DNA of 64,000 nucleotides, from positions 3,038,001 to 3,102,000 of the forward strand of contig ML978121.1 of the NCBI GenBank assembly GCA_010015805.1, written 5' to 3'. A model generated the notes under the pieces. That model was not told the DNA's origin. It saw nothing but the letters and a program-made list of their open reading frames with translations, and did no database searches. A program made the position numbers and the translations under genes. Positions 19,388-36,265 of the stretch are shown here, piece by piece. The stretch is from Rhizodiscina lignyota. Lineage: Eukaryota. The stretch's first letter is position 1; every line of letters begins with the position of its first letter.

Positions 19388-20559
19388 TATCGCAGCGAAT
19401 TTCGACGAACGATTCGGACTTTGCGCTCTAATAGAAGACGCGCTCGCGTGACGTATTATGTAACAGTTGACGACGGGAAGTGCCGTCGACCAGGCCAGGT
19501 TCCGATATTTTCATTGGGACTTCACTTCAACCTCCCATCACGACCGTAGAGCAACATCATCAGTCTTAGCTCGTCAGCAGAGGAGTGCTGTACAGCAAAC
19601 TGCACACAATACATGACTTGAGAATCGTCATGTCGTTTGACCGGAAGGAGCAACAGCGTCTACCTACTCGATGAATATCCGGAGACGAAGACGTTTGTGT
19701 CCTGGCTCGAATTTTTTACAGCATGCCGTAGTGCATACTGGATTGTGAAGTCAGATGGTGGACCGTCCTTGTCCGCTTCATTCAAGTACTGGATATTCCC
19801 TCGTCCATAATACCGCAAATAGCCATCGCCGGAGACGAATTCTAAACGCACATGCCGCCGCCGGAGTTGTGCTCGACAATGGAACTCCTCCAAGTCACTG
19901 GCACATTGGCGTATTGAAGTCATCTTCTGACTATATTCTCCCTCTATCTTCACACTCATACGGAACCAAATGTGAAGATCTACCTCTTACGCTTCTAATA
20001 TGCTAGAGCTCACCATCGTCATTCAACCAGGATGCGTGAGTGTGGACAGAGAAGCAAGAACAAAATGTCCCCCTATTTCATTCACCGGGGGCTCTCCGCG
20101 CATTTCCGATTGCTCTTGCAACATCGAGAGTAACAGGTGTTCGGAGAGACATGATCTCCAATGGAACATCGTCATAACATGTCTCTCAAGGGGCGTTAGA
20201 AATCCTAGACTAGGTATCCCGCTGTAGCAGTTATGATTTCATATATAGCGAAAGTTGTCACCATGGAGCGTAGGTAGAGCATATGAATGGCGTGATGTTT
20301 GGGTAAAAGAGTACGAGATATACAATTTCAAGAGAAACGTACGCGGTACTACTTGTGATGCAAGACTCGGCAGATGATATCGAGATTTAGTCCGCGGATA
20401 CGTCGTTGTCATGGACGATGACCTCGAATTCAACACACGCCACGCTTCGAGCCGTGGAGCAATTTACATGCCAGATACGCGTTTCCACGGCGCAAGCAAC
20501 TGATGTCATCCGCAGTTGATACTGTCATTCTAATGACGTGCACGGAACAGTTGCGCAGA

Positions 20560-20566
20560 TATAAAA
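20560..20566 (+). promoter_or_regulatory. TATA box upstream of the secreted polyprotein gene
   Basis: TATAAAA about 95 bp before ATG 20656, followed by a CT-rich tract. Confidence 0.5.
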
Positions 20567-20655
20567 ACTCTTCAGATTCCAGATTCCACCTTCTTTCCTT
20601 CTCATCATCATCTTCGCAAATTCCTCCTCAGTACTGCTTACAATCCCACACCACC

Positions 20656-23598
20656 ATGAGGATCCGTCGGATCACAAGTCAAGTGCTCGCCCTTGGCACA
20701 CTAGCGCTCCTCATTTTCCTCCTATTCCCGACTTCTCGCACCCGTTCCTTTCTTTCCCATGATGAAGCTATTGTTCAGCGACATTCGTCTTTCGGCCCGA
20801 CGGGATTGAAAGAAAAGGACTTGGCGAGCCGTGAGGCAGGCGATCTTCCGGGTCTTAGCTCCGACATCACTCACACGGACGAATTGGATCATCATTCGCG
20901 GCAACTTGACTTGGACACGTTCTATCCCCAGGGCGAGAGTGAACATAATCCTCAGAGCCGGGCAAACCACGACAGCAACGAACAGGCTCCACAAGGCCAA
21001 GCTCAAGCAGGACCTGCGAATTCGAAGCCTTCTTCTCTCACCACACCTGACTCTGGCTCTCACAACTTGGACAACGACGCTTCCACAGATGAATCTCATT
21101 TGCAAGCTCGTGCTCCAGGATCAGTCTCGGACATCAGAAACTCTCTCTCTCTCGATACCACGGACGACTCGAACGTTCTCAACAAATCGCAACGCAATGT
21201 GGCTCTACAGAGAAGAGCTATTGACCTGCCCCATGATGCGAATATGCCGAAGGCGATGGGCCCTTGGGCTGAAAGAGGGTATATGCTCTTCATCCAGATC
21301 ATGCGTCCGAAGTCATCCAAAAACTATGGCGATGCGCCTTTCCAGCGTAGCTTTCACCTAACTACCGAGTTGAAGGACCACGGTTGGGTCAAGCAAGCTC
21401 CTGATCCAACATTAATACAGGGAGTTCATGATATGATGCCACACTATGCTCCAGCGTTCCACGACCTTGGAATTTCCACCCAATTTCCTCCAAATCGATT
21501 GGTGGACTGGACATATAAGCCTAGAGGAGAGGAGACGAGCTTTCGCCATTTGACCATGTACAACGTAGAAGACCGTGCTCTGATCAATTTACTTTCAAGT
21601 CAGCCGCATTTGGACTACGATAACCCCGCCCTAGCGGGGACTTGGAGTGACATTGTCTTCACGGAATGGTGCGACCTAAGCGGGCAGTACGTCACTGGTT
21701 TACGCAACGGACGTTGCGCGAACCCCACAAATATCATTCTACCTCGAGTGTCCGATGAGGGATCTCTTTGGGTGTTGAAGCATATTTTGCAGTTCTGGCC
21801 TCGTAGCCCCGAGGAGAAATTCGTCCCGGACTGGTCACACAGAATCACCATCACCTTTGATCTCGCGAATCCTACGGCGATGCTCAAGCTATTCTGTATC
21901 CTCGCTACTCCTGCAGGCTCCCAGGTCGCAGAATTCTTCTATACGCACAAGGCCAAGCTGCATAGGGCGGAGCTCAACTCTATAGTTATTTTCAAAGATG
22001 GCGTTTGTGCTATCGACCCAAAGGATTGCCCGCAGCCGTCCTGCAAAAAGGGGTTGAATAATAATTGGTACGATTGCGCGCCGTCTCTAATCTTCAACTT
22101 CAAAACGAGCGAAGGCACGGGCAGCGGCGCAAGTACCATCGGCCAAAACCAAGAATTCACATACCTGTTCAGGTGGGGAGGCGAACCGGAGGACCTCAGC
22201 TGTATCCCTCCAATGCCGAAGATTGACTCCTCTTTCCACACCCAGTACTTCGGCTACGAGATGCAGGACCCTGGTTACTATCGTGGCGGTCCACCTCAAA
22301 GTCCTCCAGGCGGCGACGCTGAAATGGCCGATGTTGGAGAACAGACAAAGCGGTCACTCTCGGAGACCAACAGCACACTCTCTCCCGACGCCACGGACGA
22401 CTCGAGCATTTTCGATGACGATACTCATAGCAATGTGACTTTGCAAAAAAGGTTACAAAATGTGGCCGAAATACCCCCGGCTATGGTTCAATATGCTGAG
22501 AGGGGAGAAAAGCTCCTCCGAAACTTGAGACGCCGTCTCAATTTCTTTGGTGTTGTAGCTCCCAATCAACGTCCTTGGTACCAATTGCCCAATCTGCAAC
22601 GTATGGGTTGGAATGTGGAGCATCCCCCACTCTTGGAGGAACCGTGGATCAATCAAGCTTCAGCTGAGTTAAAGCCTGATTTTACATCTGCGGCTGCCGG
22701 CTTGGGACTGAGCGACACATTCCCACCCAACAAATTCGCTAAGTGGACTTTGGGAGACCAAGACCTGGTTTATGGTATGAACATTGATGTACACCACGAA
22801 GGTATTTGGTTGGCCTGGATCGCTTACGGTAATGGCCAATACCAATTCCCGGAAGCCTGGAGGTGGTCTGACATCGCCCATACCGAATGGCTATCACAAA
22901 CCGGGGCCCCCCGCCAAAAGAAACCACCCAGAATAATTGTTAACTGTCGAATAATGGACCCTGAGACTCTTTTCGTAATCAAGCACATGTTACAGTATTG
23001 GCCAACGACCCATGCTCCGCCGCTTGAGCGTATACTCCAAAAATTTCCAAACAAAATGACATTCGCTCTGGACAACCCGGCAAGAACTGCTGGCTCACGA
23101 ATCCCAACTGGTCACGCGAATATTGTACAGCTTAATCAAGGCTACGCACTCCTTGGGACCCCTGTGGCAAATAGTGTTTATGAGTTCTTATATTCGCACA
23201 AAGAGACTTTGGGGAGCAACACCTATATCACGAAGGTGCATCTCTTCCGAGATGACACTTGCAGGGATGATGCAGGAGTATGTGCAGGGCCCATGTGCTT
23301 CCTTGTTCCAAAACTTTGGTGGTGGAATGATTGTCTACCATCACTCGCATTCGAAATCAAATTCCCTTCGGGCGGGTTCGGGCAGGGTGATCCAACCATT
23401 GCCGACCCAGATTATTTCACCATTCCTGATGTTTGCCCTCCCGACTATGATCAGTACTGGGCTTCTCAGGGGTTACATCCTCCTGCTGGAGCTGCTGGAC
23501 CCGTTGGAGCCGGCCCTGCTCACCAACAACGCTCGCCCTCGGAAACCAATAACACACTCTCTCCCAACAATTTGGACGACTCCGACGCCACAGACTGA
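20656..23598 (+). CDS. Uncharacterised secretory polyprotein with two homologous Cys/Trp-rich domains separated by dibasic-site propeptides
   Basis: Intronless ORF. The ATG in CACCATG context is followed by a basic then hydrophobic signal (MRIRRITSQVLALGTLALLIFLLFP). Internal duplication is visible by eye, with RR/KR sites at 21211-21216, 22348-22353 and 22447-22452. Confidence 0.85.
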   Translation: MRIRRITSQVLALGTLALLIFLLFPTSRTRSFLSHDEAIVQRHSSFGPTGLKEKDLASREAGDLPGLSSDITHTDELDHHSRQLDLDTFYPQGESEHNPQSRANHDSNEQAPQGQAQAGPANSKPSSLTTPDSGSHNLDNDASTDESHLQARAPGSVSDIRNSLSLDTTDDSNVLNKSQRNVALQRRAIDLPHDANMPKAMGPWAERGYMLFIQIMRPKSSKNYGDAPFQRSFHLTTELKDHGWVKQAPDPTLIQGVHDMMPHYAPAFHDLGISTQFPPNRLVDWTYKPRGEETSFRHLTMYNVEDRALINLLSSQPHLDYDNPALAGTWSDIVFTEWCDLSGQYVTGLRNGRCANPTNIILPRVSDEGSLWVLKHILQFWPRSPEEKFVPDWSHRITITFDLANPTAMLKLFCILATPAGSQVAEFFYTHKAKLHRAELNSIVIFKDGVCAIDPKDCPQPSCKKGLNNNWYDCAPSLIFNFKTSEGTGSGASTIGQNQEFTYLFRWGGEPEDLSCIPPMPKIDSSFHTQYFGYEMQDPGYYRGGPPQSPPGGDAEMADVGEQTKRSLSETNSTLSPDATDDSSIFDDDTHSNVTLQKRLQNVAEIPPAMVQYAERGEKLLRNLRRRLNFFGVVAPNQRPWYQLPNLQRMGWNVEHPPLLEEPWINQASAELKPDFTSAAAGLGLSDTFPPNKFAKWTLGDQDLVYGMNIDVHHEGIWLAWIAYGNGQYQFPEAWRWSDIAHTEWLSQTGAPRQKKPPRIIVNCRIMDPETLFVIKHMLQYWPTTHAPPLERILQKFPNKMTFALDNPARTAGSRIPTGHANIVQLNQGYALLGTPVANSVYEFLYSHKETLGSNTYITKVHLFRDDTCRDDAGVCAGPMCFLVPKLWWWNDCLPSLAFEIKFPSGGFGQGDPTIADPDYFTIPDVCPPDYDQYWASQGLHPPAGAAGPVGAGPAHQQRSPSETNNTLSPNNLDDSDATD

Positions 23599-28913: not shown

Positions 28914-31469
28914 ATGAATTCAATATGTATACTTTGCAGGCTCAAGCTCATCTCCTCCGCGGGCTCAATTCGCGCGAGTCAGCGATCCATTCAAGCCCTC
29001 GTGCCTCAGACGAGAAGCGCAGCACTCCGTATCCCTAGGCATGCGCGGTCTTTTGCCTCCAGGTCAGCGCGTCTCTCGAAGTCAAGAGTTACGGCACCGC
29101 CCGAAGATACATCTGGAGCAGACATACAGCAGAGCGATCAGCAGCCTGACACCCTACCGCACCAAACTGAAGCTACCGCGCGGCGAGCTCGACGGAAGTT
29201 CGGTGATGCATTACCAGAAGGACTCTTGAACAATGAAGAGCTGGGGGCCTATGAGAAGCTCTACGGGCCACCAGAGAGAATAGTCCTGGAGACGGAATCA
29301 GCGGGACAAGAGCCGAATGCACAGCAGGTGCAAGTGGAGGGCCGCACGACGCTTCATGTCGAGGGTTTGGATAGCACATTTGAAGAGGTAGAAACTATCT
29401 TCGAAACTCGAAGGAATGGGGTGGAAGACACAAGAGCTGCAAAGGTCGCAGGCTTACTGGATGAATTTGACCTCTCGGAGGCTGAGAAGAGCCTCCTTGC
29501 AGAGTACGCGGAGGTCGAAGAGCGTTTTGAGAATGGCCATCAATTGACAGCGGAAGACGAGACAGTCCTTCGTAACAGGGAAGCTCAAGAACTGATGAGA
29601 ACGGTGCAAGGGTATGAAGAGGATATGGATGGTGAAGACGACATCGAATACGATCCTGCAAGGCCACGGGATGAGGACGAGGACGATGCAGACATATGGC
29701 CAGGCGATGAAGAACGTCTCAGAACCCACCCATACACCAAGCTCGGCCGCTTTTGTACCAGCCCGACGACTATCCAATTCCCAAAGGCAACATTCCTTGA
29801 ACCGGTGAAACAGGCCATCGCTCCCGCAACAACGAGACAAATGCGTAACCACGCTGAGAGTATCTTTGATGGACCTGGGCTTCCGTACTCCCCATCCACA
29901 CCGCGAAGAAGCCGCACAATGGAGCAGAGGCCGATTCCACTCCAGGCAGGGCAGAGGAGCATGAGTGATATGGACAGCTATGTTTATTGTGCGACTGTCA
30001 TGCCGGGTGTCTACGCGAGCGCCCTAAGCGTTCTTACGGAGATTAGGAAAAGGTTAGGGAGTAGATGGCTCCGCGATATGATGGCACAAGATGGTGGACC
30101 CGTCGTACTCGACGCAGGAGCTGGAGGAGCTGGCGTGCTCGCTTGGAGAGACATCGTGAAGGCGGAATGGGAAGCAATGCAAGAGGAGGATGCACCAGAG
30201 CCTACTCTAGAATCACCAACTGGAGTTAGCACATCTAAACAAGGACAAGCTGGCAAAGCAACTGTTCTGACGGCTTCTGATGCTCTCCGACACCGAGTAA
30301 GCACACTTCTGGACAATACCACCTTCCTGCCTCGACTACCTGAAGCCGTCCATCTCGACGGTGCAGAGAAGCGAAAACGGTATGATATCATCATTGCCAC
30401 GCATACCCTCTGGCCCATCGACAAAGATTATATGCGAAAGACGCAGGTTGACACTCTTTGGAGCCTACTCAAGCCCAGCGGTGGTGTACTCGTGCTCATC
30501 GAGAAAGGAGTGCCGCGTGGTTTTGAAGTCATCGCTGGGGCCAGAGAGCATTTACTCAAGCGACACATCGCTGATCCTCTTGAGTCTGTCGACAAGAACG
30601 TGATGGATGAGAGGAGAATTCCGAAGGAAGAAGGCATGATCATCGCACCTTGCACAAATCACACCAAGTGTCCAATGTATCCTGTCCCTGGTGTCAGCAG
30701 GGCCAGGAAAGACTGGTGCCATTTCAGCCAACGCTTCATTCGGCCTCCGTTCTTGCAGCACATCCTCGGCGCGCGACAGATCAACCACGACGACGTGGAG
30801 TTCAGCTATCTCGCCGTATCTCGGGGCACAGATCTCCGTAACACTTCGTCAGAGGAGCAGAGCCCAATCCCATCGGAGGACGACGCGCTCGAAGGAGACT
30901 TTTTGCCGGTAGAGCAAGGGCCTGAAGCCACCAACCGCGCATACAACGGCTTCGAGCATCATAGCATAACTCTCAACTCCCCTGCGACGGCTTCTGGATT
31001 ACCAGCCGATACACTGCAGACTTCCGCTCTACATCACTCGCTCACCCTCCCTCGACTCATCCTGCCACCGCTCAAACGCCCGAAACATGTCATCCTTGAT
31101 GTGTGCACACCATCCGGCACTCTGGAACGATGGACAGTCACGAAGTCGTTCTCACGGCAGGCATATCGCGACGCGCGCAAGAGTGCCTGGGGCGACCTGT
31201 GGGCCCTGGGTGCGAAAAGCAGGGCGTGGAAGAGGGTGAATTTAGGGAAGAAAGTGAGTGGGATTATAACGGGCGATGACAAAAAGTCAGGCAAAAGCAT
31301 TGATATCGAGCGGTACTATGGTATCACGTCCGTAGCTGAGCTTGCGGAGAATAGCAGAGAGTCGATGCAGAGAGACGCAGTTGAGAAGGAGAAAGAAAAG
31401 CCGAAGTGGATGAAGAAGATAGAGAGGAGGAAAGAAATCAGAAGAACGAGAAAGATGATGGATATCTAG
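28914..31469 (+). CDS. RSM22: Mitochondrial small-subunit assembly factor Rsm22 (METTL17 family)
   Basis: Arg/Ser-rich presequence-like N-terminus, VLDAGAGG, GGVLVLIEKGVPRGFE, IIAPCTNHTKCPM, CHFSQRF, PRLILPPLKR, LDVCTPSG and YRDARKSAWGDLW. Confidence 0.92.
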   Translation: MNSICILCRLKLISSAGSIRASQRSIQALVPQTRSAALRIPRHARSFASRSARLSKSRVTAPPEDTSGADIQQSDQQPDTLPHQTEATARRARRKFGDALPEGLLNNEELGAYEKLYGPPERIVLETESAGQEPNAQQVQVEGRTTLHVEGLDSTFEEVETIFETRRNGVEDTRAAKVAGLLDEFDLSEAEKSLLAEYAEVEERFENGHQLTAEDETVLRNREAQELMRTVQGYEEDMDGEDDIEYDPARPRDEDEDDADIWPGDEERLRTHPYTKLGRFCTSPTTIQFPKATFLEPVKQAIAPATTRQMRNHAESIFDGPGLPYSPSTPRRSRTMEQRPIPLQAGQRSMSDMDSYVYCATVMPGVYASALSVLTEIRKRLGSRWLRDMMAQDGGPVVLDAGAGGAGVLAWRDIVKAEWEAMQEEDAPEPTLESPTGVSTSKQGQAGKATVLTASDALRHRVSTLLDNTTFLPRLPEAVHLDGAEKRKRYDIIIATHTLWPIDKDYMRKTQVDTLWSLLKPSGGVLVLIEKGVPRGFEVIAGAREHLLKRHIADPLESVDKNVMDERRIPKEEGMIIAPCTNHTKCPMYPVPGVSRARKDWCHFSQRFIRPPFLQHILGARQINHDDVEFSYLAVSRGTDLRNTSSEEQSPIPSEDDALEGDFLPVEQGPEATNRAYNGFEHHSITLNSPATASGLPADTLQTSALHHSLTLPRLILPPLKRPKHVILDVCTPSGTLERWTVTKSFSRQAYRDARKSAWGDLWALGAKSRAWKRVNLGKKVSGIITGDDKKSGKSIDIERYYGITSVAELAENSRESMQRDAVEKEKEKPKWMKKIERRKEIRRTRKMMDI

Positions 31470-32795: not shown

Positions 32796-33490
32796 GTGTA
32801 GGTTCTTCTCCAATTCGGTTTTGGTAGAGGAAAGGCAGGTGGATGTGAATGCTCGTAAAGCCTTGTGTGGATGCTAATTGTATAAAAGCAGGTCGCGACG
32901 ATGGTGGAAGTTGTGATTATTGAACGATACGAAATGAAACACAGGTCAAAGCTGTGTACGAGGTCGAACTGCAGTTATAGCCACCAATAGAGACCTGTCA
33001 TTTCCAGTTATCAAATTGCAGACATATCCCAAAATCGGTTTCACATATGCTTCAGATTGACAGCGTTCTCCGCAACGCTTTCAACTCTTTGAGATCGTCT
33101 GAATACCAAGGCTGGATCCACAAGAGAAGCGGCACTGGAGAACAAATTCTGCTGTATCTTGAGTCTTGCTGTGAGACATAATCAGTGGTGCCGTCACATG
33201 TCCGATTCTGCACCTTTGCGAGTTTCTACTAGAGTCGGGGAGTGACATTTCGATAGCCACCTGGGATTAGGGGAAGTCTGATTGGGTTGCGGGATTCACC
33301 CGACGTTTAGCCGTATTCCGGCCCGGTCTCCGGGGCGATTGCGATGACTTCACTTCGGCTGGATCCCGTCAACATCGCCGACAACTTTTCGCGCGTGCAA
33401 CTGCGACCTGTGCTACCACAAGCAATCCCCGAACTTACTGATCGGCCGCGTATCATGGCTGCGGATGGATGTTCTTCTGGATCCAAGAGC

Positions 33491-36265
33491 ATGCGAATTG
33501 TTCCACTTGATCAGCTAGGCGAAGTCCCTCAGCCCACGCTCCAATCACTCCCCGATGAGCTGTTCGATGTTGTGCTTGAGCTCTTACCTCGGCGTACGCT
33601 CTTCGATCTCAGTCTTACCTCGCGGTGGGGATACTCTCGTGCAGTCGGACATATATGGAAGGATGTCGAGCTTGTGGACAGAGGCTGTTGGCGACAAGCA
33701 CCACCTGGCCGAAATCCTCCAGCGACGTTGAATGGAGAGGATGATCAAGAGGACGACAAGGAGTGGAGTCACTTGCACCCTGGGCAAATTTACGATGACC
33801 ACGATGAAACCCCTATGCTGAAAAAACTCTTCGTTCTTGCCACCAATCCCTTCGTCGCCTCGAAAGTCCGATCCATCATTCACCGGTGCCACCTGCCTGC
33901 CCTCGAACTATTTCAAGACCTTCCTGCAATCTTGCAGGAGGGCTTGATTCACTCCCGAGACTTCCTACATGATCATCGGAGGAACACCCTCTCGAGGCTT
34001 ATTCTGCAGGCTGTCGCAAACATGGACAATGTGCATACCCTGAAGATTCTATCTGGGCATTGGGCTATTGTCGAGACACTACTATGGGGATTTTTTGGGC
34101 CCAGCCGAAAATCCAGTGCGCCTGTGGTCCCTGTGAGGAAATTGTGGCTCGAAAGCTGTTCTCTGGTGAGCTATCGCTATGAGGACCTTTGGCATCGCCT
34201 CGATTTTTCTCAATTGGAGAGCTTAAGGATGCGGCGAATGTGGTTACAGTATAACTTTTCCCTTGAATATGCAAGTCGGTGTCTTCTGGCAAGAGGCACA
34301 TCCAACAGAATGGATATGCGGAACCAAACCGCAGGCTTTTACACCGTCTCGTTCGTAAAACGTGATGAAGACAATGTTGATGAGCCAAACCGCACAGCCG
34401 AATTCTTTCTCGAACTCTCGTTTCGAGAGATCATGGGACAAGCGAATAGAGCGCCTCCAGTGTCTTGGATTGCCTTCACGCAGGGCCTCGCTGGTTCGAC
34501 TACTAAGAATGGAATTCCCACGGCTCAGTTACAGTCTTCACTGAACACTGCGTATGCTCTTCAGGCGTACGATTCCATTCTTCGTTTACTTGGTCTAAGA
34601 AAGATTGGCACGATTTACACCAGCGCGGATTGGCCGATCCCAGAAATGATTCAAAAGTATCAACATTCTCGCTGGTGGAAGATGGGGCCGTCCTCGTATC
34701 CTCCCGTCTTCCATACGCTCATGTCCTCTTCGGTAACACTCACGTCTCTTTGTCTGGATTGGCTGATGTGTGGGACATTCAGTATCACGTCACCTGCGCC
34801 AGCCGCAAAGGGAACCGAATCACATAATCTCATTCAATACCTAAACAAACAACGATTTCCCAACTTACGAGCATTCCAATTACGGAATGCAATATCGAAG
34901 TATGCAGCGCTTCAAGAAAGAATCTGGCTCCTTGATAGCGGGTGTACCGATGAGCAAGAGATCGAAGACTGGAAGAAGCGTGACATGGAACAACCTTTTC
35001 CACCTCCGCACCTTAACACGGGCATGCTTGATTTTATGGAGGCACATTCGAATCTTCGGTGTCTTGCATGGCCGATGGACGCCTTCTTTCCTCCTGAGCC
35101 GTCATCTCCCGCTATTGCAGATAGGATTCGCAATGTCATTACCAACCTAGGCCGGAGCCTCGTGGATTTGCGCGTGGATGCCTTTCTCACTACGCAAGGG
35201 GAGCCTATGACCGACGATCAACAGACTGCGGAGGGAGTGGAAAAACGCGTACAGCGGCGGCGATTCATATCAGAATTTGCTGCGGAGATGCGGGCCGTAC
35301 AAAGTATCAAGGTGGAAGGAGGCATTCCCCGCGACGAGAAACGTGAAATAGCTCGAGCGTTACGCCATTGTCCTCTTTCCAAGCTTGTTTTCATTGGGGC
35401 TTCCTTCCCTCTAGCGAATACATGGGGCCCAGAGGCAATCGATCTTCTGGCCGTTGACGATGGTGGCACGCCCTATCTTTCAAGACTAGATGCAGAGGAC
35501 GAAGCCGCCATCGAAGATGCCGTTAGATTAGATCCCACTTCTGCGACTACATCGACATCAAGGTTTAGGCCATCGTATGGCTGGACGCTCGACAGTCTCC
35601 CTATGCTCTATACGATTGCACAGCATCATTGCGACACCATCAGACTGCTAAAATTTTGCGGCTATAGTGGTTGTCCAGTGCTGCAAAGACCAACTCCAAT
35701 CACGCATCCGTTAATTCATCATCTGAAGTATTTCAAAGAGCTTCGAGAACTGGTCATGTCCTTCTGGCTCCTGACATTCTACGACCAAGCTCACAGAGAC
35801 GACAGCGTCATCAAATATTGGCTGGAGATGCGAAAACCTACATCCAAGGCTCTCGTGGCCCTGCCAGGCGCTGGAAACATCGAGGATGGAGCACATGGTC
35901 CGGACGAAGATACAGCTCACGCGGACGCGCCAGATGCCGCTTCCGATGACCTAGGCTTAGCAGCCCGCATAACTTCTCCCAGCCCAGATGGCGCATCTTG
36001 GCTCTACAACAGTTTCCATCCAGACAATCTTGCGAAACAAGTCGCCAAATTCATCGGGCCACATCTAGCAAAGGAAGCAAAAGAGCGACCAGGCGGCGTG
36101 CGTGTACGCGCAAGCTTCTGCCTCGGCATCTATTGCCAGGACATCTTTGACTTTGATGTTCGGATAGGCACAGATGACAAGGTCCTTGACTTTGTTGGGC
36201 CGAGAGAGGATAGCTGGGAAGGAGGGCGGTCAGAAGACAAGTTGAAGAGGCGCAGGTGGTTTTGA
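33491..36265 (+). CDS. F-box protein with LRR-like solenoid
   Basis: LQSLPDELFDVVLELLPRRTLFDLSLTSR is an F-box, followed by repeated LxxLxL units. Start uncertain (33455 or 33491); in-frame introns possible. Confidence 0.8.
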   Translation: MRIVPLDQLGEVPQPTLQSLPDELFDVVLELLPRRTLFDLSLTSRWGYSRAVGHIWKDVELVDRGCWRQAPPGRNPPATLNGEDDQEDDKEWSHLHPGQIYDDHDETPMLKKLFVLATNPFVASKVRSIIHRCHLPALELFQDLPAILQEGLIHSRDFLHDHRRNTLSRLILQAVANMDNVHTLKILSGHWAIVETLLWGFFGPSRKSSAPVVPVRKLWLESCSLVSYRYEDLWHRLDFSQLESLRMRRMWLQYNFSLEYASRCLLARGTSNRMDMRNQTAGFYTVSFVKRDEDNVDEPNRTAEFFLELSFREIMGQANRAPPVSWIAFTQGLAGSTTKNGIPTAQLQSSLNTAYALQAYDSILRLLGLRKIGTIYTSADWPIPEMIQKYQHSRWWKMGPSSYPPVFHTLMSSSVTLTSLCLDWLMCGTFSITSPAPAAKGTESHNLIQYLNKQRFPNLRAFQLRNAISKYAALQERIWLLDSGCTDEQEIEDWKKRDMEQPFPPPHLNTGMLDFMEAHSNLRCLAWPMDAFFPPEPSSPAIADRIRNVITNLGRSLVDLRVDAFLTTQGEPMTDDQQTAEGVEKRVQRRRFISEFAAEMRAVQSIKVEGGIPRDEKREIARALRHCPLSKLVFIGASFPLANTWGPEAIDLLAVDDGGTPYLSRLDAEDEAAIEDAVRLDPTSATTSTSRFRPSYGWTLDSLPMLYTIAQHHCDTIRLLKFCGYSGCPVLQRPTPITHPLIHHLKYFKELRELVMSFWLLTFYDQAHRDDSVIKYWLEMRKPTSKALVALPGAGNIEDGAHGPDEDTAHADAPDAASDDLGLAARITSPSPDGASWLYNSFHPDNLAKQVAKFIGPHLAKEAKERPGGVRVRASFCLGIYCQDIFDFDVRIGTDDKVLDFVGPREDSWEGGRSEDKLKRRRWF

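What the first reader, a model, noticed from the sequence alone, without database searches (positions are those of the whole stretch)
20656..23598. Secretory polyprotein: two homologous ~370-aa domains released by Kex2-type sites
Seen: after a signal/anchor segment and an acidic prodomain, the ORF has LQRR (21205-21216), domain 1 (21217-22347, 377 aa), KR + acidic spacer + LQKR (22348-22452) and domain 2 (22453-~23532, ~360 aa). The two domains align by eye throughout: PKAMGPWAERG/PPAMVQYAERG, LGISTQFPPN/LGLSDTFPPN, WSDIVFTEW/WSDIAHTEW, VLKHILQFWP/VIKHMLQYWP, ILATPAGSQVAEFFYTHKAKL/LLGTPVANSVYEFLYSHKETL. Each has a four-Cys knot C-x6-C-x4-C...W.DC.PSL.F. Established: Kex2 cleaves after KR/RR, and LxxR-type sites flank many fungal effector prodomains. 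The repeat precursors I know of mostly release short peptides. Inference: one transcript may deliver two diverged, full-size folded proteins in 1:1 ratio, such as a two-component effector/toxin or paired enzymes. I recognise no family for the domain. The gene is intronless and sits among conserved, mostly intron-containing genes, consistent with an accessory insertion.
Basis: partly seen in the sequence, partly recalled or inferred. Interest (0 to 1): 0.8.

Follow-up and report, generated by a model that had tools for sequence, protein, structure and literature searches.

The report
Orphan fungal two-domain secretory precursor
A fungal gene with no detectable relatives encodes a probable secretory precursor in which two distantly related 40-kDa domains each follow a repeated spacer ending in a protease-cleavage motif, so one gene may yield two proteins, but nothing yet shows that it is expressed or cut.

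Summary
ORF 20656-23598 (+) encodes 980 aa. It has an N-terminal hydrophobic signal/anchor and a 127-aa acidic region. Two ~370-aa domains follow, alike at 29% identity over 337 aa (BLASTP E=3e-30).

New here: the repeat unit includes the spacer. A 32-33-aa acidic spacer ending NVxLQ[KR]R precedes each domain, and a truncated third copy ends the protein. L-x-[KR]-R occurs 3 times against 0.31 expected (P=0.003). All 4 N-glycosylation sequons lie outside the domains.

No relative was found anywhere: Pfam, PDB sequences, 1.84 billion representative proteins, and metagenome, viral and prokaryote contigs. The gap is not in the databases, because a neighbouring gene's product is present under the name Rhizodiscina lignyota.

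AlphaFold2 failed (pLDDT 41 and 32), so the fold is unknown. A language-model hint of a tyrosine-recombinase fold failed every test.

Best reading (0.45): a kexin-processed precursor built like killer preprotoxins or KEPs, with unusually large, paralogous products. Expression, processing, dimerisation and function are all untested. Interest is moderate.

The parts
20560..20566 (+). TATAAAA box-like sequence, followed by a CT-rich tract, about 90 nt upstream of the favoured start
   Evidence: Read directly. There is no ATG between it and 20656. It lies inside the upstream in-frame extension that begins at ATG 20503.
20656..23598 (+). Intronless ORF of 980 codons plus stop: the precursor
   Evidence: No in-frame intron-like segment was found. 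Single copy at >=80% likeness in the one run that holds it.
20656..20739 (+). Residues 1-28: basic n-region (R2, R4, R5), 15-residue hydrophobic core V10-F24, then PTSR. Either a signal peptide or a type II signal anchor.
   Evidence: hydropathy maximum 2.26. The choice between peptide and anchor is unresolved because no SignalP-type tool was on hand.
20740..21120 (+). Residues 29-155: unique acidic, low-complexity pro-region
   Evidence: residues 29-187 are 64% disorder-promoting, with D+E 25 against K+R 14.
21121..21216 (+). Spacer copy S1 (residues 156-187), ending NVALQRR. Predicted kexin cleavage after R187.
   Evidence: Smith-Waterman S1 vs S2: 0 of 2000 shuffles reach the score. DNA repeat reference copy.
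21217..22347 (+). Domain 1 with its Pro/Gly-rich tail (residues 188-564); 8 Cys
22006..22077 (+). Four-Cys cluster of domain 1 (C451, C458, C463, C474)
   Evidence: All four are invariant between the domains.
22348..22353 (+). K565-R566, a dibasic site at the upstream edge of spacer S2. It is not conserved in the other copies (QQR before S3, none before S1).
22354..22452 (+). Spacer copy S2 (residues 567-599), with sequons NST and NVT, ending NVTLQKR. Predicted kexin cleavage after R599.
22453..23532 (+). Domain 2 with its Pro/Gly/Ala-rich tail (residues 600-959); 6 Cys
23260..23334 (+). Four-Cys cluster of domain 2 (C869, C876, C881, C893)
23533..23595 (+). Truncated third spacer copy S3 (residues 960-980, sequon NNT), which is the C-terminus
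   Evidence: S2 vs S3: 0 of 2000 shuffles reach the score; 13 of 19 aa and 42 of 57 nt identical from the preceding Arg; third copy of the DNA repeat.

Best explanation
[quoted passage not shown] Its luminal part is a tandem array of the unit [acidic spacer ending NVxLQ(K/R)R + ~365-aa disulfide-containing domain], present twice and followed by a truncated third spacer. In the late Golgi the kexin (Kex2 homologue) cuts after R187 and R599, and probably after R566. That frees the array from the anchor and pro-region. The predicted products are two paralogous proteins of about 41 and 39-42 kDa (each about 110 Da per residue) and a 33-aa spacer carrying two N-glycosylation sequons. The layout pre - pro - A - spacer - B is that of yeast and smut killer preprotoxins, and the repeated unit recalls KEX2-processed repeat proteins, but the products here are large and homologous to each other. 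Shown: the ORF, the duplication, the repeated spacer and the motifs. Inferred: secretion, cleavage, glycosylation and disulfides. Guessed: an extracellular role, such as an antagonistic protein or a wall- or substrate-active protein of a wood saprobe.
For: Duplication: E=3e-30. A single N-terminal hydrophobic segment with basic residues before it. Cys counts are even, 8 in D1 and 6 in D2. Four Cys are invariant, and C339/C354 occur together in a loop that D2 lacks entirely. L-x-[KR]-R occurs 3 times against 0.31 expected (P=0.003). Two of these sites sit 10 and 7 residues before the first conserved block (P.AM) of each domain. Between the copies, NVxLQ[KR]R differs in 5 of 7 codons: 3 synonymous only (Leu CTA/TTG, Gln CAG/CAA, Arg AGA/AGG), one Ala/Thr and one conservative Arg/Lys. 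This suggests selection on the peptide motif, though on very few sites. There are no N-x-S/T sequons in 654 domain residues (3.27 expected, P=0.03) and 4 in 298 spacer and tail residues. The spacer is repeated three times. Kex2 preference for P1 Arg, P2 Lys/Arg and P4 Leu/aliphatic is from PMC8528282 (passages). The K28 preprotoxin has a pro-region, alpha, an N-glycosylated gamma spacer and beta, with pro and gamma removed by Kex2p (PMC5666379, passages). KP6 is two polypeptides from one Kex2p-processed preprotoxin (PMC11119588, passages).
Against: No transcript, protein or cleavage data exist. The total number of [KR]R sites is not above chance. The sequon and motif statistics rest on small numbers. 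A third L-x-R-R (LRRR 624-627) lies inside domain 2, so the motif alone does not mark a cleavage site. The 60-nt spacer heads differ evenly across codon positions: 5/5/4 for S1-S2, with 11 of 12 differing codons changing the residue. Their likeness therefore looks like later DNA homogenisation or a nucleotide-level constraint rather than selection on a peptide. No protein matching this ORF is in the collections that do hold the neighbour's deposited protein, so the public annotation may have no model for it. The fold is unknown.
Confidence: 0.45

Rival explanations
1. The protein is an unprocessed, or only N-terminally shed, tandem-domain protein. It would be a type II membrane or secreted protein whose two paralogous domains stay on one chain as a pseudo-dimer. 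The spacers would be flexible, glycosylated linkers, and the dibasic sites would be unused or used only for shedding.
For: The [KR]R count equals chance. The hydrophobic core plus uncharged flanks spans 22 residues (I6-S27), long enough for a Golgi-type anchor, and no good -3/-1 cleavage site lies close to it (judged by recalled rules). Tandem paralogous domains on one chain are common.
Against: Linkers are usually the least conserved part of a protein. Here the LQ[KR]R end of the linker is kept through synonymous change, and P4 Leu + P2 K/R + P1 R in an acidic, disordered context is a close match to the kexin preference (PMC8528282, passages).
Confidence: 0.3
2. The ORF is silent or decaying and makes no functional product. 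It may be unannotated because it has no transcript support.
For: No matching protein is in the collections although the neighbour's deposited protein is. There are no homologues anywhere.
Against: Both copies keep open frames and blocks of identical residues, including all four knot Cys, although their DNA has diverged to 46% identity. That requires long purifying selection after the duplication. A 980-codon open frame in about 51% GC DNA is not expected by chance (inference, about (61/64)^980).
Confidence: 0.08
3. The functional products are the spacer peptides, as in KEX2-processed repeat proteins, and the large domains are carriers.
For: At DNA level the spacers are the best conserved part of the repeat: 77% and 62% against 46% for the domains. 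S2 is flanked by KR and LQKR.
Against: Only S2 has dibasic sites on both sides. Differences between the spacer heads mostly change residues and are spread evenly over codon positions, which argues against a conserved bioactive peptide. The domains show conserved blocks.
Confidence: 0.05
4. The domains are derived from a tyrosine recombinase (Crypton/DUF3435-like), the protein is intracellular, and the four Cys bind zinc.
For: In the ESM Atlas feature search with D1 residues 1-320, 21 of the 30 hits belong to clusters with no common Pfam family. Every listed hit set that does carry a Pfam family belongs to families I recall as having the tyrosine-recombinase fold: PF16684, PF11917, PF00589, PF16787 and PF12012. 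Scores were 0.90-0.94.
Against: Shared features were 94-146 of 256, below the 170 typical of true family hits. D2 gave nothing similar (best 0.81). Pfam hmmscan gave no hit at E<=10. A profile of 15 recombinases scored at best -3.3 bits with all filters off, and hhalign gave a probability of 0.5% over 7 columns. No H-x-x-R is conserved in both domains. The domains are acidic (net -11 and -5). The N-terminus is a secretory-type hydrophobic segment.
Confidence: 0.04

Closest known systems
Killer preprotoxins processed by Kex2 (K28 and K1 of Saccharomyces, KP6 of Ustilago maydis virus)
   Same: One ORF with the order pre - pro - subunit - spacer - subunit. Dibasic sites mark the junctions. The spacer carries N-glycosylation sequons, like the N-glycosylated gamma of K28. 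Two mature polypeptides arise from one precursor (PMC5666379 and PMC11119588, passages read). From recall, not from a call: the two KP6 subunits share a fold, as D1 and D2 share ancestry.
   Different: The subunits here are about 40 kDa rather than 8-11 kDa. No sequence relation was found (no Pfam hit). The gene is chromosomal rather than on a dsRNA satellite. Toxicity, immunity, an inter-subunit disulfide and processing are all untested.
KEX2-processed repeat proteins (KEPs; Le Marquer et al. 2019, PMC6339444)
   Same: A secretory precursor whose repeated unit includes a Kex2 site. The survey reports motif sizes from 3 to 352 aa, so large units are within its catalogue (section 6 read).
   Different: The KEP pipeline requires at least three repeats interspaced by Kex2 sites, and here there are two full units. 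The copies are only about 30% identical, whereas KEP motifs are identical or nearly so. The products would be folded proteins rather than peptides.
Kex2-processed pro-domain (K2PP) proteins (Outram et al. 2021, PMC8528282)
   Same: An N-terminal pro-domain rich in disorder-promoting residues that ends in a KR/RR/LxxR motif with Leu at P4.
   Different: K2PP proteins have one pro-domain and one mature effector, and were defined in plant pathogens. Here the pro-domain end and cleavage motif are repeated internally, and the pro-region is long (159 aa).
Zymocin alpha-beta precursor of Kluyveromyces lactis
   Same: From recall, not from a call: two large subunits are cut from one precursor by a kexin. 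The passages read in PMC11119588 give only the three subunits and their roles.
   Different: The zymocin subunits are unrelated to each other (a chitinase and a hydrophobic subunit) and belong to known families. Zymocin is plasmid-encoded.

Membership tests
KEX2-processed repeat proteins (KEPs) | [quoted passage not shown] | tested here: not met
   There are two full domain units. The spacer has three copies, but only S2 is flanked by dibasic sites on both sides.
KEX2-processed repeat proteins (KEPs) | Repeats occupy at least 15% of the protein | tested here: met
   Units S1+D1 and S2+D2 cover residues 156-959 of 980.
KEX2-processed repeat proteins (KEPs) | Predicted secreted protein | tested here: inconclusive
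   An N-terminal hydrophobic segment with a basic n-region is present. No signal-peptide predictor was available, so cleaved peptide and anchor cannot be told apart.
K2PP (Kex2-processed pro-domain) proteins | Disorder-rich N-terminal pro-domain ending in KR, RR or LxxR in the first half of the protein | tested here: met
   Residues 29-187 are 64% disorder-promoting and end in LQRR at 184-187.
K2PP (Kex2-processed pro-domain) proteins | Pro-domain removed by Kex2 | not testable with these tools
   Needs protein chemistry.
Killer preprotoxins (K1/K28/KP6) | Order pre-pro-alpha-gamma-beta with Kex2 sites at the junctions and an N-glycosylated gamma | tested here: met
   Met at sequence level only: LQRR187, KR566 and LQKR599, with sequons NST572 and NVT593 in the spacer.
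Killer preprotoxins (K1/K28/KP6) | Sequence or fold relation to a known toxin family | tested here: not met
   No Pfam family at E<=10 and no relevant PDB sequence match. The models are too poor for fold comparison.
Killer preprotoxins (K1/K28/KP6) | Toxicity to other fungi and a self-immunity mechanism | not testable with these tools
   Needs bioassays.
Tyrosine recombinase fold (PF00589, PF11917 DUF3435, PF12012, PF16684, PF16787) | Profile match to a family model | tested here: not met
   hmmscan against Pfam gave none at E<=10. My own 15-sequence profile gave -3.3 bits with --max, and hhalign gave a probability of 0.5%.
Tyrosine recombinase fold (PF00589, PF11917 DUF3435, PF12012, PF16684, PF16787) | Catalytic R...K...H-x-x-R...H/W...Y (recalled definition) | tested here: not met
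   No H-x-x-R is conserved in both domains. The K-H-x-L-Q and Y-[TS]-H-K motifs only resemble it by eye.

The most novel reading that the evidence does not exclude
One chromosomal ORF yields, through kexin cleavage and removal of a glycosylated spacer, two paralogous 40-kDa subunits of a previously unseen fold. The subunits assemble into a heterodimeric secreted toxin or antagonistic protein. This would be a four-fold larger analogue of KP6/K28 that arose by tandem duplication of a [pro-peptide + domain] unit in an isolated lineage of wood-inhabiting Dothideomycetes.
Probability: 0.12. Interest if true: 0.7.

Novelty: new variant of a known kind. Interest (0 to 1): 0.4.

Why it matters
If the processing is real, this would be a clear natural case of a fungal kexin-processed precursor that delivers two full-size, mutually homologous folded proteins in fixed 1:1 ratio. 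It would bridge peptide-releasing KEPs and small killer preprotoxins. It would also show how tandem duplication of a 'pro-peptide + domain' cassette can create a two-subunit secreted product. The domain has no relative in 1.84 billion representative proteins and could not be folded by AlphaFold2, and ESMFold2 gave at least the D2 chain pLDDT under 50. It is therefore a candidate new fold. Against this, it is a single gene in a single genome of an obscure saprobe, with no evidence of expression or function, so its present value is as a lead.

Tried and rejected
Homologue searches, all blank:
- The search for homologous proteins on residues 188-940 (8000 candidates scored, none).
- The search for homologous proteins on D2 at near lengths (3117 candidates, none at E<=0.01).
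- phmmer of D1 against 1,835,955,588 representatives (0 at E<=0.001).
- Pattern scans with tblastn confirmation: metagenome contigs (313 pattern matches, 0 confirmed; 26 matches, 0 confirmed), viral contigs (87, 0), prokaryote genome contigs (62, 0).
- tblastn within the window found no further copy. Weak hits at 52-53 kb lie in a TruB-like pseudouridine-synthase ORF (my reading of its translation; no family search was run on it) and are chance matches.

Family and structure searches:
- Pfam: 0 families at E<=1 and at E<=10.
- PDB sequences: only chance rows, at E 0.26 and 0.9.
- AlphaFold2 with the two-sequence alignment: pLDDT 41.3 for D1 and 32.3 for D2.
- Foldseek on the D1 model: best E 0.019, TM about 0.1, meaningless.
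- ESM Atlas with D2: best 0.81, unrelated families.

Tyrosine-recombinase lead: rejected after (8 phage records, none an integrase).

Other:
- Complex prediction D1+D2: no verdict, ipSAE 0.00 in both runs, partner pLDDT under 50.
- Sequencing runs: one DNA holder only and no RNA holder listed. Laying that run's contigs showed one contig, one copy, no differences.
- No flanking terminal repeats of note.
- Codon usage gave no sign of foreign origin: GC3 0.54 against 0.52-0.70, RSCU correlation 0.42 against 0.42-0.63 for the neighbours. D2 alone was -0.01, on a small sample.

Closed or unavailable: own-genome search, earlier findings, cluster look-up.

Literature searches were by topic. No search can show that this protein is unpublished.
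Full report
**1. The observation**

An ATG-to-stop ORF runs 20503-23598 on the + strand (1031 aa).

The 20656 start is the more likely one by sequence. TATAAAA lies at 20560-20566, inside the upstream extension. A CT-rich tract follows, with no ATG before 20656, and that ATG sits in CACCATGA with an A at -3. This is an inference, because no transcript data exist.

The two domains are homologous:
- BLASTP gives 98/337 identities (29%), E=3e-30.
- MAFFT gives 32% identity with blocks of invariant residues.
- tblastn of D2 against the window aligns it to 21238-22416, that is through D1 and into the following spacer (E=5e-32).

**2. Anatomy**

Residues 1-28 carry three Arg, a 15-residue hydrophobic core (V10-F24) and then PTSR. 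The eight highest 19-residue hydropathy windows all lie here. Whether this is a cleaved signal peptide or a type II anchor cannot be decided without a predictor. By recalled rules the core is long for a signal peptide, and the nearest small-residue -3/-1 site is poor.

Residues 29-155 are acidic and of low complexity.

A 32-33-aa acidic spacer precedes each domain: S1 at residues 156-187 and S2 at 567-599. A truncated copy, S3 (960-980), forms the C-terminus.
- Smith-Waterman scores against 2000 shuffles: S1-S2 reached by 0, S2-S3 by 0, S1-S3 by 24.
- At DNA level there are three copies of a 60-nt element at 21121, 22354 (77%) and 23533 (62%), spaced 1233 and 1179 nt apart.

The protein is therefore signal/anchor + pro-region + [spacer-LQ(K/R)R + domain] x 2 + partial spacer.

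**3. Signs of the secretory pathway and of kexin processing**

Cys counts are 8 in D1 and 6 in D2. Four Cys are invariant (C-x6-C-x4-C-x10/11-C). C339 and C354 occur together in a loop that D2 lacks, as expected for a disulfide pair.

[KR]R dipeptides are not more frequent than chance (5 against 3.67 +/- 1.78). L-x-[KR]-R, however, occurs 3 times against 0.31 expected (P=0.003). LQRR and LQKR lie 10 and 7 residues before the first conserved block (P.AM) of each domain. The third site, LRRR 624-627, is inside D2, so the motif alone is not proof of cleavage.

Published Kex2 preferences are P1 Arg, P2 Lys/Arg and P4 Leu or another aliphatic residue (PMC8528282, passages read).

The heptapeptide NVxLQ[KR]R differs in 5 of 7 codons between S1 and S2:
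- 3 differ only synonymously (CTA/TTG, CAG/CAA, AGA/AGG);
- one is Ala/Thr;
- one is a conservative Arg/Lys change.

This fits selection on the peptide, though the sample is tiny.

All four N-x-S/T sequons are in spacers or tails. None is in the 654 domain residues, where 3.27 are expected (P=0.03).

**4. A result that cuts the other way**

The 60-nt spacer heads are much more alike than the domains. Nucleotide identity is 77% and 62%, against 46% for the domains. Third-position identity is 16/20 for S1-S2, against 44% at identical residues in the domains.

Their differences, however, are spread evenly over codon positions (5/5/4 for S1-S2), and 11 of 12 differing codons change the residue. 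That is not the mark of purifying selection on a peptide. It points to later homogenisation by gene conversion, or to a nucleotide-level constraint. I therefore do not count the heads' likeness as evidence for a bioactive spacer peptide.

**5. What the domain is**

No family was found:
- Pfam: 0 hits at E<=1 and at E<=10.
- PDB sequences: only chance rows.
- phmmer of D1 against 1.84 billion representatives: 0 hits.
- Word-indexed searches with residues 188-940 and with D2: none.
- Pattern scans of metagenome, viral and prokaryote contigs: 0 confirmed of 313, 26, 87 and 62 pattern matches.

AlphaFold2 on the two-row alignment gave pLDDT 41.3 (D1) and 32.3 (D2). ESMFold2, run inside complex prediction, also gave pLDDT under 50 for the D2 chain. 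Foldseek on the D1 model was meaningless. Both poor models show a similar mixed alpha/beta order of elements, which is only a hint.

**6. The tyrosine-recombinase lead**

In the ESM Atlas feature search with D1 residues 1-320, 21 of the 30 hits belong to clusters with no common Pfam family. The listed hit sets that do carry a Pfam family were all families I recall as having the tyrosine-recombinase fold (PF16684, PF11917, PF00589, PF16787, PF12012), at scores of 0.90-0.94. Shared features were only 94-146 of 256.

I tested this lead:
- hmmscan gives none of these families even at E<=10.
- tblastn against 50,697 phage records gave 8 weak records, none an integrase.
- A profile of lambda Int, Cre and 13 E. 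coli K-12 recombinases, run with all filters off, scored at best -3.3 bits. hhalign gave a probability of 0.5% over 7 columns.
- No H-x-x-R is conserved in both domains.
- The domains are acidic.

The lead is not supported. Comparison with eukaryotic Crypton/DUF3435 alignments beyond the Pfam models was not possible.

**7. Context and origin**

The neighbours are housekeeping genes: PCI, CWC25, eIF4E, two WD40 proteins and Rsm22.

The Rsm22 ORF is letter-identical to a protein that NCBI names as from Rhizodiscina lignyota, apart from 19 residues that the deposited model removes (832/851). This species is a Dothideomycete of the order Aulographales. The order is described as saprobic on leaves and wood (PMC7082219, passages). 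The next best Rsm22 relative is only 50% identical, so the lineage is poorly sampled.

Even so, a relative as distant as D1 is from D2 (106 bits) should have been detected. The family appears confined to this lineage, or it evolves very fast.

The collections hold the neighbour's deposited protein but nothing matching this ORF. The public annotation may therefore lack a model here.

The locus is single-copy at >=80% likeness in the one run that holds it. Codon usage is within the neighbours' range. No flanking repeats suggest a mobile element. 'Accessory insertion' remains untested.

**8. Mechanism and comparison**

The best reading (0.45) is a kexin-processed precursor that releases two paralogous ~40-kDa proteins and a glycosylated spacer.

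The layout matches killer preprotoxins. K28 has pro, alpha, an N-glycosylated gamma and beta, with Kex2p removing pro and gamma (PMC5666379). KP6 is two polypeptides from one Kex2p-processed precursor (PMC11119588).

The repeated cassette recalls KEPs, whose catalogue includes motifs of up to 352 aa but requires at least three repeats (PMC6339444).

This protein is not a member of any of these families by sequence. It works like them only by inference.

The main rival (0.30) is an uncut tandem-domain protein. Function is unknown. An extracellular antagonistic or wall- or substrate-active role is a guess.

**9. Verdict**

It is a new variant of a known kind of precursor, built on an orphan domain of unknown fold. 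Interest is 0.4.

Noticed in passing
window 20656-23598 versus public protein collections: The collections hold the deposited protein of the neighbouring Rsm22 gene from the same genome but nothing matching this 980-aa ORF. The ORF may be unannotated in the public record.
   Followed up: partly
window 30838-30894: The deposited Rsm22 model lacks 19 residues that the window's ORF reads through in frame. The skipped 57 nt begin with GT and end with AG and lie in an acidic low-complexity stretch. This is either a real short intron or an annotation choice.
   Followed up: partly
window 33311-36265 (+): A 984-codon open frame with no Pfam family at E<=0.001. It is a second large uncharacterised ORF in the window and is unrelated to the target (only a chance tblastn row).
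   Followed up: no
window 21121-21180, 22354-22413, 23533-23592: The 60-nt spacer heads are 62-77% identical at DNA level, while the domains between them are 46% identical. Their differences are spread evenly over codon positions, which suggests gene conversion between spacers after the duplication.
   Followed up: yes
window 20503-20655: An in-frame upstream ATG would add 51 residues and turn the hydrophobic segment into an internal anchor. A TATA-like box lies inside this extension, so it is probably untranslated leader or promoter.
   Followed up: partly
window 21217-22176 (D1 residues 1-320): The protein language-model search put D1 near tyrosine-recombinase-fold families, including fungal DUF3435, although every alignment-based test failed. 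The reason for this placement is unexplained.
   Followed up: yes
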